From: a virus
Taxonomy: Duplodnaviria > Heunggongvirae > Uroviricota > Caudoviricetes
Direction: 5' to 3' (one strand)
IMG/VR virus record: IMGVR_UViG_2698536428_000002
Length of the DNA stretch: 13,798 nucleotides
A program made the translations under genes and the position numbers. Under the pieces are notes generated by a model. It did no database searches and had not been told where the DNA came from. It worked only from the letters and a program-made list of their open reading frames with translations. Shown piece by piece: positions 3,918 through 13,200 of the stretch. The number at the start of each line of letters is the position of its first letter. Positions within the stretch are counted from its first letter, which is position 1.

Positions 3918-4313
3918 TCACATCTCGTATGTAATGGAATAAGTCAGATCCGCAGAGCTCCATAACGCCATATCGTCATCACGACGATACTCATAGCCCT
4001 GCGTAACCATCGTGGTAATCAGTCCTGCCAGTGCAGGGATCGCAGTCATCGCCGGATAAATCCGGCTTTCCATCCACTGATCGAGCTCCGAATCAGGTAC
4101 CTGTGCCGGTAAAAACACCTCAATATGCAGTGTGGCCCGCCAGGTATCTGCATCCAGCTCTTCACCGGTATACTCTGCATCCGTCAGATAAACCGCGATC
4201 GCAGGAAAATCCTCTTCGTCAAAAACAACGGGGCGACCATCAAACAGCGTCGCCCCGTGTTCATGCTGCTCGAGTGCATCCAGCACTGCGGCACGAATGT
4301 CAGTGTGTTTCAT
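3918..4313 (-). CDS. U: Tail terminator protein (lambda gpU-like)
   Basis: 131 aa; [54 protein letters not shown]... matches lambda gpU throughout. Overlaps the Z stop. Confidence 0.95.
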
Positions 4314-10197: not shown

Positions 10198-10400
10198 AAC
10201 CTCACTCCCAGCGGACGACGGCGACGGCGGGTTGTCCCCAGTACCGACTCCGCATCATTGATCGCCCGGTTAAGCTCATCCAGAGAAGCTGCCGTATATT
10301 CAATTCTGCGACCATCTTTCTGGACAGACACCACCCGTTTACCGGTTAATAAATCAAGGCGCGCCTGACGCAGCGCCTGCAGTTCAGCGACTGTAACCAT
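10194..10400 (-). CDS. W: Head-tail joining / head completion protein (lambda gpW-like)
   Basis: 68 aa; ...LTGKRVVSVQKDGRRIEYTAASLDELNRAI... matches lambda gpW ([22 protein letters not shown]). Start overlaps the 3' end of A. Confidence 0.9.
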   Translation of the reverse strand: MVTVAELQALRQARLDLLTGKRVVSVQKDGRRIEYTAASLDELNRAINDAESVLGTTRRRRRPLGVRL

Positions 10401-12312
10401 TCACTCCTCCGGACAGCTTCGCTGCCAGTTCTTTAAGGGTTGGCCGGGTCGTCTCTTCTTCCCGGGATTTTGCCAGTACAGCCAGATCAAGCTGCCAGCG
10501 TTGCACGGACACACGTAATGCCGCGTAGGCATACACCAGGCAGTCCAGCGCTTCGTTACGCCGCTTTTTGTTATCCCACAGCAGACGCATCTTTCCTTTT
10601 TCCCACTTCTCCACAAGCTCTTCCGCCACCAGTTGCTGCGCCTCTGTCTGCGAAAAAATCTCCGGATCATCAGGAAAACGGATGGCATACGACGTGGCTT
10701 CATCCGCAGGCGTGGGATCGGCTTTCATACGGGCATAGAGAATTTCTTTTGCGGTGTCCGTCCCCACTTCGCACAGATACACGCCCCGCTGATTGCGGGT
10801 TTTTGGCATGGTGATCACCGGCTTGCCATAAACAGATGCACCTTTTACCGGCAGCACCCGGAAAACACCGTGTTTTTTTGACCTCTGATAGACAATTTCG
10901 CCATCGATCCCCCCGGTGTCCCAGCAGACACGGGAAATGGTCATTTCGGTTCCGTCTGCATGGCGGTATTTTTTGTTGATCGCCACATCCACACGTAACA
11001 GCGTCTCTTCCTCATCGGGACGCCCCATAATGATGATTTTATCCACCAGAAAGGCTTCCTCTCCCGGAGCCCATCCCCAGACATACATCTCAAAACGGTT
11101 TCGCTGCGAGTCAATGCCCGCCGTCAGATAAACCACCCGGGCAGGCACCGCCGCCGTGTAACGCACAACCTTATCCATCAGTACCTGGTGATCGAGTTTT
11201 TCGCCCACGGCCTCTTCCCAGGTCTCGCCCAGCGTGGTGTTCACAAATGTTTTCAGGCCGTTGGGATCTTTCAGTGCATCCAGCCAGTCATAGACAATCT
11301 GTACCCAGGTGGTGAACGGACTGTACGCCGTCCAGATATGGAATGTGATGGAGCGCGGCGGCGGAATTTCATTACCCGCAGCGCTGAAAAACGTCAGGCC
11401 GTCACGGGTCCACATGCCCGTGTTTTCACAGATCCACCGCCCGTTGCTCTGGTCAAGATCAGACTGATGGATCACGCAGCCATGATGTTCACAGAGGTAG
11501 AAAACACTTTCTGGACTGTCCTTCTCCCATTTAAGGCCAAAAGGCGTGGACTCATCGCCAAATTTCAGATACTGCGCCTCCCCACAGTGTGGGCAGGGCA
11601 CATAAAAACGCATGAAATGCGCCGACTCGTTGGCCGCTTTTTCGATCTGGCAGGAGCCTTTTATTTTAGGCGTCGAGCCGCGAATGGATTTTGGCCATAC
11701 CGAGCCCTCAATACGCTTATCCCCCAGCAGGGTTGGCGAGCCCTCTTTTTCGACATCCGGCTCGAACGAGGAAAGTTCGTCATAGCAGACCACGTCCACG
11801 GATTTTTCACGGTAGTTTTTTGCTGCCGCACCACCCAGGCACCAGAAGCCCACCCCCGATGAAAAGCGTTTCAGCGTGAGAGTATTGTCACGATGTTTAC
11901 GACCCAGCCACGGGGAAAGATCTTTCAGGCATGGCACGTCCCGAATCGTCGCCTCCACGTGAGACTTCATAAAATCTTCAGCGGCAGAATCCGTGGGCTG
12001 AAAAAGCAGACTGTTTCGGGATTTATGCTCAATAAAATACCCGGCGACTCCCAGCAACATCTTTGTATAGCCAACACGGGCAGATTTAATCAGATTAACA
12101 GTGCGGATCTGATCATTCCCCATACTGTTCATGATGGCGATCTGGAACGGCAGCGTTTTCCATTCGCCGTCACCGTATGAGGATTCTTTCGGCAGATAAT
12201 AATACTGGTCAGCCCATTCAACTGCCGTCATCGGTACAACCCTGACCAGAGGCTGCAGCGCAACCGAAACGGCGGCCACCATATTATTCAGTTGTTGCTC
12301 TGATATATTCAT
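10384..12312 (-). CDS. A: Terminase large subunit (lambda gpA-like)
   Basis: Very high similarity to lambda gpA along the whole length: TAVEWAD..YYLPKES, KSARVGYTKMLLGV (Walker A), NYREKSVDVVCYDEL, GSPTLLGDKRIEGSVWPKSIRGSTPK, TFVNTTLGETWE, WDTGGID, KKRRNEALDC. Start set at the MNISEQQ methionine (12312) by alignment to the lambda N-terminus MNISNSQ; the track ORF begins 19 codons further upstream at 12369. Confidence 0.96.
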   Translation of the reverse strand: MNISEQQLNNMVAAVSVALQPLVRVVPMTAVEWADQYYYLPKESSYGDGEWKTLPFQIAIMNSMGNDQIRTVNLIKSARVGYTKMLLGVAGYFIEHKSRNSLLFQPTDSAAEDFMKSHVEATIRDVPCLKDLSPWLGRKHRDNTLTLKRFSSGVGFWCLGGAAAKNYREKSVDVVCYDELSSFEPDVEKEGSPTLLGDKRIEGSVWPKSIRGSTPKIKGSCQIEKAANESAHFMRFYVPCPHCGEAQYLKFGDESTPFGLKWEKDSPESVFYLCEHHGCVIHQSDLDQSNGRWICENTGMWTRDGLTFFSAAGNEIPPPRSITFHIWTAYSPFTTWVQIVYDWLDALKDPNGLKTFVNTTLGETWEEAVGEKLDHQVLMDKVVRYTAAVPARVVYLTAGIDSQRNRFEMYVWGWAPGEEAFLVDKIIIMGRPDEEETLLRVDVAINKKYRHADGTEMTISRVCWDTGGIDGEIVYQRSKKHGVFRVLPVKGASVYGKPVITMPKTRNQRGVYLCEVGTDTAKEILYARMKADPTPADEATSYAIRFPDDPEIFSQTEAQQLVAEELVEKWEKGKMRLLWDNKKRRNEALDCLVYAYAALRVSVQRWQLDLAVLAKSREEETTRPTLKELAAKLSGGVNGYSR

Positions 12313-12790
12313 CGAGTAAATCCGGTAATTTATCCCCCGCCCGCGCACACTGATTTGCCCCCTTCGCAATAAGGGTTTTCAGATGGTCAAGATGGCGCGG
12401 TGTTAAATCAGGAAACTGTCGCTGCATGGATAACGGAATGGAATCAAGCGTACTGGACAATGCCATCGCCAGTTTGCTGAGGGCGAAAACGCAGAAGTCT
12501 GAATCGATGAGCTTACCTTCGGTTACCTGATTTTTAAGTTTTTGAGCTACAGCCTGTTCTTCTGTCAGTTCAGCTCTGGCCCGAAGCAGCCTTTCCTCCA
12601 GTTCTCCCCCGTCATCAGGTGTTCTCTGATTGTGTTGTCGCCGCTCGCGATCTATCTCCAGTACAGTTTTAACGTCATATAAAACTTCCCTCCCCCGACG
12701 TTCAACAGGAGGAACGCCCCATTTATCAAATGCCTGAACAGAGATACCGATGGAGGAGGCCATATCACTTTTATTCAATAAAAAGGCCAT
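12284..12790 (-). CDS. Nu1: Terminase small subunit (lambda gpNu1-like) with divergent N-terminal DNA-binding domain
   Basis: C-terminal half (FCVFALSKLAMALSSTLDSIPLSMQRQFPDLTPRHLDHLK...LLDEYI) matches lambda Nu1; the N-terminal ~60 aa are only weakly similar. Start chosen at the ATG at 12790 (MAFLLNKSD...) because GGAG sits 5 nt upstream and this leaves the putative cosB repeats outside the ORF. In-frame alternatives at 12808 and 12895 are possible. 3' end overlaps the start of A as in lambda. Confidence 0.82.
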   Translation of the reverse strand: MAFLLNKSDMASSIGISVQAFDKWGVPPVERRGREVLYDVKTVLEIDRERRQHNQRTPDDGGELEERLLRARAELTEEQAVAQKLKNQVTEGKLIDSDFCVFALSKLAMALSSTLDSIPLSMQRQFPDLTPRHLDHLKTLIAKGANQCARAGDKLPDLLDEYIRATTE

Positions 12791-12820
12791 CTCCTCTCCA
12801 TAAGTCATCGATAAAAAGCG

Positions 12821-12968
12821 AAACAACAACCATGTGTTTTTGCAAAACCATTTGATATCATTGATATTTTTCGCATTGACGACATCAAAACACATCGTAA
12901 GGTTGTTGTATTTATTTTATTTTCACCTTACTTATCAATTAGATATACAAAACAATTAAACAACAACC
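12821..12968 (-). repeat. Putative cosB: three copies of GGTTGTTGTTT-like element (two direct, one inverted) flanking an AT-rich IHF-like segment
   Basis: Plus strand has AAACAACAACC at 12821..12831 and 12958..12968, and inverted GGTTGTTG at 12901..12908. AT-rich DNA with TATCAA motifs lies between the two upstream copies. The layout mirrors lambda cosB (R3, I1, R2 inverted, R1) between cosN and Nu1, though the repeat sequence differs from the lambda CGTTTCC-type R sites. Confidence 0.5.
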
Positions 12969-13006
12969 ACCCCCTCAAAAAATCTCATAAATAGTGAAAA
13001 CGCGCG

Positions 13007-13018
13007 AGGTCGCCGCCC
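13007..13018 (-). other. cosN cohesive-end site (12-nt overhang GGGCGGCGACCT)
   Basis: Minus strand reads ...CGGGTCCTTTCCGGCGATCCGGGCCGTTACG|GGGCGGCGACCT|CGCGCGTTTTCACTATTTATGA. This is near-identical to the lambda right end (...CGGGTCCTTTCCGGTGATCCGACAGGTTACG) joined to the lambda left end (GGGCGGCGACCTCGCGGGTTTTCGCTATTTATGA). Confidence 0.85.
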
Positions 13019-13200
13019 CGTAACGGCCCGGATCGCCGGAAAGGACCCGAGAAAATGATAATGATTATCAGTTGCAACAAAATCCAGTTTCTTCCACCAT
13101 CGCACCGGACGAGCGACCATGAGGGGACAACGCCACGCTCCGTTAACGCGGTAAACCCCGGTGTGTATCGTTTTTGATTATCCCCGCACACTCGCGCAGA
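13019..13200 (-). other. Non-coding phage right-end region upstream of cosN (cosQ-containing region by analogy with lambda)
   Basis: No credible ORF. The cos-proximal ~40 bp match the lambda right-end sequence that I can recall; cosQ is inferred to be here by position only. Confidence 0.5.

What the first reader, a model, noticed from the sequence alone, without database searches (positions are those of the whole stretch)
12790..13060. Intact cos site with lambda-identical cosN but non-lambda cosB repeats and a divergent Nu1 DNA-binding domain
The 12-nt cohesive end and flanking cosN sequence are almost identical to lambda. The three repeats between cosN and Nu1 (GGTTGTTGTTT-type, direct / inverted / direct) are unlike the lambda R sites but sit in the same R3-I1-R2-R1 layout. 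In parallel, the Nu1 N-terminal region is diverged while its C-terminal half is conserved. Together this suggests a lambdoid phage with its own packaging-initiation specificity, comparable to the lambda versus phage 21 difference. An intact cos also means this element is potentially packageable.
Basis: partly seen in the sequence, partly recalled or inferred. Interest (0 to 1): 0.5.

Follow-up and report, generated by a model that had tools for sequence, protein, structure and literature searches.

The report
Lambda-like cos site with N15-type recognition repeats
This is the DNA-packaging start site (cos) of an E. coli lambda-like prophage whose recognition repeats and small-terminase DNA-binding domain are the already described phage N15 / "Monarch" type, so it is real but ordinary.

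Summary
On the minus strand the window carries cosQ (GGGTCCT) and a 12-nt cohesive end identical to lambda. Three exact GGTTGTTGT repeats follow in direct/inverted/direct order, then a 168-aa Nu1-family small terminase and a gpA-family large terminase.

The interpretation, "its own packaging specificity", does not hold. The repeats are the R3 sequence of phage N15 (GAGGTTGTTGTT, bp 48-59, defined by mutation; PMC4669245), at the same distance from the nick. The TerS N-terminal 45 residues are 82% identical to N15 gp1, with an identical recognition helix (GISVQAFDKWGV). Feiss et al. (2015) already described prophages, typified by "Monarch", that combine N15-type R sites and helix with a lambda-like R3-I1-R2-R1 cosB and no rR2. 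The window meets every one of those features that I could test.

The claim that the Nu1 C-terminal half is conserved is not supported: 44% versus 38% identity to lambda. TerL is phage-21-like (91%).

The same cos occurs in 269 of 5,426 complete E. coli genomes.

Comparative evidence for function is strong. GGTTGTTGT sits 77-82 bp from cosQ in distant Gammaproteobacteria. cosB plus the TerS DNA-binding domain swap as one cassette against phage PhiR12.

The one local peculiarity is that R1 lies about 37 bp further from R2 than in lambda or 21.

The parts
13042..13048 (-). cosQ (GGGTCCT), the packaging-termination subsite, at bp -30..-24 from the nick.
   Evidence: Identical to lambda, 21 and N15 at the same distance. 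Invariant in the alignment of five tripartite-type relatives. The cosQ role comes from the literature (PMC4669245).
13007..13018 (-). cosN cohesive-end sequence GGGCGGCGACCT (bp 1-12), flanked by the conserved CG dinucleotides. TerL is predicted to make the staggered nicks here.
   Evidence: Matches lambda and 21 at 12/12; N15 differs at bp 9 and 12. Physical ends were not determined.
12975..12989 (-). I2-equivalent block (bp 30-44, TATGAGATTTTTTGA) between cosN and R3.
   Evidence: Aligns with phage 21's annotated I2 (bp 30-44, TATGAAAATTTTTCA). Conserved across relatives even where cosN differs.
12958..12968 (-). R3: GGTTGTTGTTT (bp 51-61), the predicted critical TerS binding site.
   Evidence: Same sequence as N15 R3, offset by 1 bp (N15 bp 50-60). 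N15 block mutations of bp 48-53 and 54-59 cut yield about 7-fold and about 100-fold (PMC4669245). The motif lies 77-82 bp from cosQ in relatives from many genera.
12933..12945 (+). I1-equivalent IHF-like site (TATCAATTAGATA, one mismatch to WATCAANNNNTTR), bp 74-86, in an 83% A+T spacer.
   Evidence: Same position and orientation as phage 21's annotated I1 (bp 72-86, consensus match at 74-86); lambda's is at 79-91. The consensus match alone is not above chance.
12901..12911 (+). R2: GGTTGTTGTAT, inverted relative to R3 and R1 (bp 108-118).
   Evidence: Same position as phage 21 R2 (bp 107-122). Its core is invariant across five relatives whose spacers diverge.
12845..12857 (-). Additional IHF-like site (TATCAAATGGTTT, one mismatch), bp 162-174, within the extra roughly 37 bp between R2 and R1.
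   Evidence: It has no counterpart in lambda or 21. Its function is inferred only.
12821..12831 (-). R1: GGTTGTTGTTT (bp 188-198), the predicted accessory TerS site.
   Evidence: Conserved in 4 of 5 tripartite relatives. It lies 41 bp upstream of the ATG, much as N15's single R3 lies 39 bp upstream.
12801..12813 (-). IHF-like site (TATCGATGACTTA, one mismatch) between R1 and the TerS start, placed like phage 21's I0 but in the opposite orientation.
   Evidence: Weak evidence.
12284..12790 (-). Small terminase subunit (TerS/Nu1 family), 168 aa, with SD GGAGAGGAG at 12799..12791. Residues 1 to about 55 form the winged-HTH DNA-binding domain with recognition helix GISVQAFDKWGV. The C-terminal third is the presumed TerL-binding part.
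   Evidence: Pfam Phage_Nu1, E=4e-21. Residues 1-45 are 82% identical to N15 gp1, 38% to lambda and 22% to 21. Annotated 'terminase small subunit' at the same coordinates in the identical RefSeq prophage. The AF2 model gives pLDDT about 80-88 for residues 1-50 with a beta-alpha-alpha-wing-alpha order.
10384..12312 (-). Large terminase subunit (TerL/gpA family), 642 aa, carrying the nuclease that would nick cosN.
   Evidence: Pfam GpA_ATPase and GpA_nuclease. Identity is 91% to phage 21 gp2 (44% in the first 50 aa), 65% to lambda gpA and 66% to N15 gp2.

Best explanation
This is the packaging site (cosQ-cosN-cosB) of an E. coli lambdoid prophage that uses the N15 packaging specificity in the complex, tripartite cosB architecture described for the 'Monarch' prophage group.

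Proposed mechanism, by homology to lambda, 21 and N15:
1. The TerS winged-HTH dimer reads GGTTGTTGT in R3 and in the inverted R2.
2. An IHF-induced bend at I1 brings R3 and R2 together.
3. This anchors the 21-like TerL so that it places staggered nicks 12 nt apart at cosN, producing GGGCGGCGACCT 5' overhangs.
4. R1 is an accessory site.
5. cosQ serves termination at the next cos.

Shown here by sequence: the sites, their positions, their identity to N15 R3 and helix, their conservation, and cassette co-inheritance. Inferred: binding, bending, nicking, and that the prophage is active.
For: 1. R3 at bp 51-61 equals N15 R3, which lies at bp 50-60. N15 R3 was defined by block mutations that reduce yield 7- to 100-fold (PMC4669245).
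2. TerS residues 1-45 are 82% identical to N15 gp1 and the recognition helix is identical. Pfam Phage_Nu1 matches at E=4e-21.
3. [quoted passage not shown] All were found here. No R-like sequence within 1 mismatch occurs in the TerS gene, whereas N15 has rR2 at bp 250.
4. Comparative footprint. In 28 loci with TerS relatives (34-99% identical; Escherichia to Pseudomonas, Halomonas, Aeromonas), nearly all have an exact GGTTGTTGT on the TerS strand upstream of the gene. Where cosQ is recognisable it lies 77-82 bp away. In five tripartite relatives cosQ, R3 and R2 are conserved while the spacers and even cosN diverge.
5. Cassette behaviour. Phage PhiR12_2 is 96-100% identical on both sides (cosQ/cosN and the TerS C-terminal half). 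It carries a different R repeat (CATGTCCGG type) and an unrelated TerS N-terminus between window about 12986 and about 12560.
6. The locus is common and kept intact: 269 of 5,426 complete E. coli genomes hold at least 80% of the 281-bp cos query, and 220 hold at least 80% of the cos-plus-TerS query. The late genes are intact.
Against: - No experiment bears on this element: no virion ends, no binding data.
- I could not read the Monarch sequence itself. The Virology 2015 paper is not held, so identity with Monarch rests on matching its published description.
- No isolated phage in the phage collection carries this cosB (blastn found no match) or a full-length TerS more than 60% identical. The type is therefore known only from prophages.
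- R2-R1 spacing is 78 bp centre to centre, against 41-43 bp in lambda and 21, so the higher-order complex may differ.
- The IHF matches each have one mismatch, and such matches are not enriched over chance in the window as a whole.
- The identical SCU-106 prophage has several pseudogenes in its early region.
Confidence: 0.85

Rival explanations
1. One reading: a new, private packaging specificity, a fourth lambda/21-like class distinct from all described ones.
For: The R sites and the TerS N-terminus are unlike lambda and 21. The cosB DNA has no blastn match in 50,697 phage records. R2-R1 spacing is unusual. TerS differs from N15 gp1 at 8 of the first 45 residues.
Against: The R core and its distance from cosN equal N15 R3, and the recognition helix is identical to N15's. 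The combination with a tripartite cosB was already published (PMC4669245).
Confidence: 0.07
2. A relic cos in a defective prophage: the sites are recognisable but the element is no longer induced or packaged, so the feature has no present function.
For: The identical SCU-106 prophage has frameshifted or truncated early-region genes and a Qin/DicB-type early region. No isolated phage with this cos is in the phage collection.
Against: TerS, TerL and all head and tail ORFs in the window are intact. The R boxes and cosQ are conserved across diverged copies while the spacers drift, which indicates selection. The locus is present in about 5% of complete E. coli genomes. A cos can also be used in trans by a co-resident phage of the same specificity.
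Confidence: 0.12
3. The repeats are chance, or bind some other factor such as a transcriptional regulator of the late operon, and are unrelated to packaging.
For: The region is A+T-rich (26-32% G+C), where short repeats are easier to find. No binding data exist.
Against: Shuffles give 0.29 expected matches and 0 of 200 reach the observed count. No promoter- or terminator-like site lies in cosB and there is no Rfam hit. The motif keeps a fixed distance from cosQ across genera and matches the mutationally defined N15 R3.
Confidence: 0.02

Closest known systems
'Monarch' group of N15-like prophages (Feiss et al. 2015, Virology 482:260; described in PMC4669245)
   Same: N15-type R3 and TerS recognition helix. 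Complex cosB with three R sequences, R2 inverted. An IHF site between R3 and R2. No rR2 in the TerS gene. Known as prophages.
   Different: Nothing demonstrable. I could not obtain the Monarch sequence, so the cosN sequence, the R2-R1 spacing and the TerS C-terminus or TerL type could not be compared.
Phage N15 cos / gp1 (Ravinvirus N15)
   Same: R3 sequence GGTTGTTGTTTAAT at bp 50/51. Identical recognition helix, with 82% identity over TerS residues 1-45. Same TerS length (168 aa). Same cosQ.
   Different: N15 has a simple cosB: a single R3 plus a remote rR2 inside gene 1, with the ATG at bp 89. Its cohesive end differs at bp 9 and 12. Its TerS C-terminal part and TerL are lambda-like (82% and 87% to lambda), whereas here they are 44% and 65-66% to lambda/N15, and TerL is 91% identical to phage 21.
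Phage lambda cos / Nu1
   Same: Identical 12-nt cohesive end and cosQ. Same cosQ-cosN-I2-R3-I1-R2-R1-TerS order. R3 and R2 at nearly the same distances. Same protein families.
   Different: The R core is CGTTTCC rather than GGTTGTTGT. The recognition helix is SIRTIQNWQE rather than ISVQAFDKWG. TerS is 38% and TerL 65% identical. R1 is about 37 bp closer to R2 in lambda.
Phage 21 cos / gp1-gp2
   Same: Identical cohesive end and cosQ. R3, I1 and R2 at the same base positions (50-65, 72-86, 107-122). TerL 91% identical.
   Different: The R core is (CATG)TCGG type. The TerS DNA-binding domain is 22% identical. The first 50 residues of TerL are only 44% identical. R1 is at bp 150-165.
Escherichia phage PhiR12_2 and relatives (PV340549-PV340554)
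   Same: cosQ/cosN flank 97-100% identical. TerS C-terminal half about 91% identical at the amino-acid level. Same TerL type.
   Different: A different cosB (CATGTCCGG-type repeats) and an unrelated TerS N-terminal domain. This is an alternative specificity cassette in the same backbone.

Membership tests
lambda-like cos site (cosQ-cosN-cosB) | 12-nt cohesive-end sequence related to lambda's, flanked by conserved CG at the nick positions | tested here: met
   GGGCGGCGACCT matches lambda 12/12, with flanks ...TTACG|GGG...CCT|CG. This is sequence only; physical ends were not determined.
lambda-like cos site (cosQ-cosN-cosB) | 7-bp cosQ GGGTCCT about 30 bp upstream of the nick | tested here: met
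   Window 13048..13042 = bp -30..-24, identical to lambda, 21 and N15.
lambda-like cos site (cosQ-cosN-cosB) | cosB immediately followed by Nu1-family TerS and gpA-family TerL genes | tested here: met
   Pfam Phage_Nu1 at E=4e-21; GpA_ATPase and GpA_nuclease; RefSeq annotation.
lambda-like cos site (cosQ-cosN-cosB) | Virion DNA has 12-nt 5' cohesive ends generated at this site | not testable with these tools
   Requires induced virion DNA and end mapping.
N15 packaging specificity | R3 at about bp 48-59 matching GAGGTTGTTGTT | tested here: met
   The window has GTGGTTGTTGTT at bp 49-60 (11/12, shifted by 1 bp). The R3 definition is from PMC4669245.
N15 packaging specificity | TerS recognition helix identical to TerS-N15 | tested here: met
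   GISVQAFDKWGV is identical in both proteins; 37/45 identical over residues 1-45.
N15 packaging specificity | DNA is packaged by N15-specific terminase and not by lambda or 21 terminase | not testable with these tools
   Needs helper-packaging assays like those in PMC4669245.
Monarch-type complex cosB | Three R sequences, with R2 opposite to R3 and R1 | tested here: met
   Exact copies at 12968..12958 (-), 12901-12911 (+) and 12831..12821 (-).
Monarch-type complex cosB | [quoted passage not shown] | tested here: inconclusive
   A one-mismatch consensus match lies at bp 74-86, in the same place and orientation as phage 21's I1. Such matches are not above chance in the window as a whole, and there are no binding data.
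Monarch-type complex cosB | No rR2 sequence inside the TerS gene | tested here: met
   No match within 1 mismatch on either strand of 12284-12790. N15 and MStein-2023a do have ACTACAACC there.
Monarch-type complex cosB | Sequence identity to the published Monarch cos | not testable with these tools
   Feiss et al. 2015 Virology (PMC4461450) is not held, and the figures of PMC4669245 are not held.
N15-type simple cosB | A single R3, no R2/R1/I1, TerS ATG about 40 bp after R3, and a remote rR2 | tested here: not met
   Three R sites are present, the ATG is 178 bp after R3, and there is no rR2.
lambda packaging specificity | R sites with a CGTTTCC core and the Nu1 helix SIRTIQNWQE | tested here: not met
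   No CGTTTCC-type repeats. Identity to lambda is 6/20 over bp 41-60. The DNA-binding domain is 38% identical.
phage 21 packaging specificity | R sites of the annotated 21 type (GTGTCGG / CATGTCGG) and the gp1 helix | tested here: not met
   The 21 R boxes are absent. The DNA-binding domain is 22% identical.
PICI/Rpp-type satellite cos | cos on an island lacking TerL and head-tail genes, read by an Rpp-TerS heterodimer | tested here: not met
   This cos sits in a full late operon: TerS, TerL, portal, protease, decoration protein, capsid and tail genes.

The most novel reading that the evidence does not exclude
The tripartite N15-type cosB may be a distinct architectural variant and not just a lambda-layout copy. 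R1 is displaced about 37 bp outward, with a second IHF-like site in the extra DNA.

The single-R 'simple' cosB is the widespread state across Gammaproteobacteria. It may therefore be the ancestral state, with the tripartite form an enteric elaboration. That is the reverse of the published proposal that N15 arose from a Monarch-like ancestor by an R3 x R1 crossover.

Probability: 0.2. Interest if true: 0.35.

Novelty: new member of a known kind. Interest (0 to 1): 0.2.

Why it matters
It matters little beyond annotation. It assigns a common class of E. coli prophages (about 5% of complete genomes) to the N15/Monarch packaging-specificity group. It also shows that cosB and the TerS DNA-binding domain move together as a recombination cassette between otherwise near-identical 21-like head modules.

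This is useful for three things:
- predicting which co-resident prophages or satellites can cross-package one another;
- choosing helper/cos pairs;
- the evolutionary question of simple versus complex cosB.

It does not open a new mechanism.

Tried and rejected
- **Phage collection, DNA.** Megablast of the cos region matched only the cosQ/cosN part, query 1-173. A more sensitive blastn of cosB alone found nothing. So no isolated phage carries this cosB, but N15's single 11-bp R3 is too short for BLAST to detect.
- **The Monarch paper.** I tried to read Feiss et al. 2015 Virology by DOI and by PMC id. It is not held. Text searches for Monarch and for the repeat string found nothing further.
- **PDB by sequence.** Only marginal hits to the lambda Nu1 DNA-binding domain (1J9I, 6HN7, 7LW0; E 0.2-0.6).
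- **Structure prediction.** The single-sequence AlphaFold model was confident only for residues 1-50. Foldseek against the PDB gave no hit at E<=0.001. MerR-like proteins (CbpM, BldC, CarH/CarA, NmlR) appeared among the weak hits. This is consistent with a winged-HTH domain but not evidence for one.
- **Other feature types.** The promoter/terminator scan and Rfam found nothing in cosB, which removes the regulatory-RNA and terminator readings.
- **IHF consensus.** The scan is not enriched over shuffles for the window as a whole. Only positional agreement with phage 21's annotated sites supports I1.
- **PICI/satellite cos.** Considered and rejected on gene context.

Full report
**What is there**

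The window is part of an E. coli lambdoid prophage. A stretch of 867 bp around the finding is 100% identical to the chromosome of strain SCU-106. There it lies between the lysis genes and a complete lambda-type late operon: TerS, TerL, W, portal, protease, decoration protein, capsid, FI and tail genes. All genes run on the minus strand of the window.

Reading the minus strand, with bp 1 as the first base of the cohesive end, the order is:

| Element | Window coordinates | bp from nick | Sequence / note |
|---|---|---|---|
| cosQ | 13048..13042 | -30..-24 | GGGTCCT |
| Cohesive end | 13018..13007 | 1-12 | GGGCGGCGACCT |
| I2-like block | 12989..12975 | 30-44 | conserved |
| R3 | 12968..12958 | 51-61 | GGTTGTTGTTT |
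| I1 (IHF-like) | 12945..12933 | 74-86 | one mismatch to consensus |
| R2 | 12911..12901 | 108-118 | inverted GGTTGTTGTAT |
| Extra IHF-like site | 12857..12845 | 162-174 | one mismatch |
| R1 | 12831..12821 | 188-198 | GGTTGTTGTTT |
| SD and TerS start | 12799..12788 | ATG at 229 | ATG at 12790 |

TerS is 168 aa (12790..12284) and TerL is 642 aa (12312..10384). They belong to Pfam Phage_Nu1 and GpA_ATPase/GpA_nuclease.

**Check of the observation**

- The cohesive end matches lambda 12/12. The 31 bp to its left match 26/31 and bp 13-40 match 24/28. Beyond about bp 40, similarity to lambda disappears.
- The three repeats are exact for the 9-mer. At up to one mismatch to the 11-mer the whole 13.8-kb window has 5 matches, against 0.29 expected, and 0 of 200 shuffles reach 5. 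From local composition, about 0.0015 further copies of the 9-mer are expected in 220 bp.
- The direct/inverted/direct order is that of lambda (CGTTTCC at 53, GGAAACG at 114, CGTTTCC at 155) and of phage 21's annotated R boxes.
- R3, the IHF-like site and R2 sit at the same base positions as R3, I1 and R2 of phage 21: 50-65, 72-86 and 107-122.
- R1 is about 37 bp further out than in lambda or 21. The R2-R1 centre distance is 78 bp against 41-43 bp.
- The statement about Nu1 is not borne out. Identity to lambda Nu1 is 38% for residues 1-45 and 44% for residues 96-168.

**What it is**

The repeat is not new. In phage N15, R3 is GAGGTTGTTGTT at bp 48-59. Scrambling bp 48-53 reduced yield about 7-fold and scrambling bp 54-59 about 100-fold (PMC4669245).

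- N15 reads ...CATGAGGTTGTTGTTTAATCATT with GGTTGTTGTTT at bp 50-60. The window reads ...GGGTGGTTGTTGTTTAATTGTT with it at bp 51-61.
- The window's TerS and N15 gp1 have the same length.
- Their identity is 82% over residues 1-45, with an identical helix GISVQAFDKWGV, but only 22% over residues 46-95 and 44% over residues 96-168.

[quoted passage not shown] The window matches each point, including the absence of any rR2-like sequence in the TerS gene. N15 and the N15-like phage MStein-2023a do have one. I could not read the primary Monarch paper or its sequence. Membership therefore rests on the published description.

**Evidence that the repeats are functional TerS sites**

- *Phylogenetic footprint.* In 28 loci encoding TerS relatives (34-99% identity, from Escherichia, Trabulsiella, Pluralibacter, Erwinia, Aeromonas, Pseudomonas, Halomonas/Vreelandella, Oceanimonas and others), nearly all have an exact GGTTGTTGT on the TerS strand upstream of the gene. 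Wherever a cosQ heptamer is recognisable it lies 77-82 bp upstream of the motif.
- *A known virion-type record.* In Pseudomonas phage F10 the motif starts at base 52 of the linear record.
- *Caveat on bias.* The loci were recruited partly through the peptide VQAFDKWG, so invariance of the helix is selected for. Conservation of the DNA motif is not.
- *Conservation within tripartite relatives.* Among five of them, cosQ, the I2-like block, R3 and R2 are conserved while the spacers diverge and the cohesive-end sequence itself changes. R1 is kept in four of the five.
- *Cassette exchange.* Phage PhiR12_2 is 96-100% identical to the window through cosQ/cosN and again through the TerS C-terminal half. 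Between window about 12986 and about 12560 it carries different repeats (CATGTCCGG type) and an unrelated TerS N-terminus. cosB and the DNA-binding domain are thus inherited as one unit, as expected for a cognate site-protein pair.

**Mosaic structure**

- cosQ/cosN are of the lambda/21 type.
- cosB plus TerS residues 1 to about 62 are of the N15 type.
- The TerS C-terminal part and the first 50 residues of TerL form a third type, shared with the PhiR12 phages.
- The rest of TerL is 91-99% identical to phage 21 gp2.

This fits the known division of labour: the TerS N-terminus reads cosB and the TerS C-terminus holds the TerL N-terminus (PMC4669245).

**Mechanism proposed (inferred by homology)**

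1. A TerS winged-HTH dimer binds R3 and the inverted R2 across an IHF bend at I1.
2. This positions TerL to nick cosN 12 nt apart.
3. R1 is accessory.
4. cosQ is used for termination.

The AF2 model supports a beta-alpha-alpha-wing-alpha N-terminal domain (pLDDT about 80-88). Fold and PDB sequence searches were only weakly consistent with this.

**Distribution and novelty**

- 269 of 5,426 complete E. coli genomes hold at least 80% of the 281-bp cos, and 220 hold at least 80% of cos plus TerS.
- No record in the phage collection has this cosB or a full-length TerS above 60% identity. The type is so far a prophage-only class, as it was in 2015.
- I rate it a new member of a known kind, of low interest.
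- The residual open points are the displaced R1 with its extra IHF-like site, and the direction of evolution between simple and complex cosB.

Noticed in passing
window 10384-12312 (TerL) and 12284-12560 (TerS C-terminal part): TerL is 91% identical to phage 21 gp2 overall (99% over residues 401-642) but only 44% over its first 50 residues. The TerS C-terminal third is 37-44% identical to lambda, 21 and N15, yet about 91% identical to the PhiR12 phages. This suggests a co-varying TerS-C/TerL-N interaction module separate from both the DNA-binding cassette and the rest of TerL.
   Followed up: partly
L035 (E. coli ATCC 25922, NZ_CP117235 1707763-1715918, reverse complement), cos at about 4037-4182: A satellite/PICI-like island beside narP encodes a primase, SSB, major capsid, decoration protein and a 180-aa TerS, but no TerL, portal or tail genes. 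It has a lambda-identical cosQ and cohesive end. Its R-like repeats are changed to GGTTGGTGT/GGTGGTGGT and its TerS helix is VSATAFDKWGV. That is a natural co-variation of helix (SVQ to SAT) and site (GTT to GGT). About 75%-identity blastn matches of this kind appear repeatedly in the E. coli row sample; how many genomes carry this class was not counted.
   Followed up: partly
L009-L034 (28 genome loci), and L039 (Pseudomonas phage F10, bases 1-130): The GGTTGTTGT site paired with the (I/V)SVQAFDKWG helix is spread across Gammaproteobacteria. In most cases it is a single copy 39-65 bp before the TerS ATG and 77-82 bp after cosQ (simple, N15-like cosB). Tripartite forms were seen only in enteric-type loci. 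This raises the possibility that simple cosB is ancestral, the reverse of the published N15-from-Monarch proposal. The sampling was biased by the search peptide.
   Followed up: partly
L036 (E. coli OkiPb01703) about 1443-1707, and L011 (MAG) about 1239-1503: Relatives with the same tripartite N15-type cosB and the same cosQ have a different sequence at the cohesive-end position (for example ...CCGGGGGTCGGTAGACGCGC...). The cosB cassette is therefore combined with more than one cosN type.
   Followed up: no
window 12821-12911: R2 and R1 are embedded in a longer inverted repeat: ATGTGTTTT at 12887-12898 against AAAACACAT at 12829-12840, 12 nt and 92% complementary. The R2-R1 spacer is about 37 bp longer than in lambda or 21 and contains an extra IHF-like site. 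The flanking repeat is not conserved in L036 or L011.
   Followed up: partly
window 12724-12945: Four of the five one-mismatch matches to the IHF consensus WATCAANNNNTTR in the whole 13.8-kb window fall within this 220-bp cos/TerS-start region, although the total count is not above chance.
   Followed up: partly
L038 (PhiR12_2) 293-415, L041 (PhiR5_1), and window 12956-13191: Induced E. coli phages PhiR12 and PhiR5_1 carry further cosB/TerS-DBD cassettes, with CATGTCCGG-type and CATGTC[AG]-type repeats. A short 'hypothetical protein' annotated in the PhiR12_2 cos region, and the mechanical ORFs 12956..13120 and 12985..13191 that span cosN in the window, are probably not genes.
   Followed up: no
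L001 (SCU-106 prophage) 1-19800: The early region of the identical prophage is Qin/DicB-like (ydfA-D, dicB, relBE, hokD) and has several frameshifted or truncated genes. There is also an unannotated gap of about 1 kb after a truncated DUF1327 gene. Inducibility is therefore uncertain.
   Followed up: no
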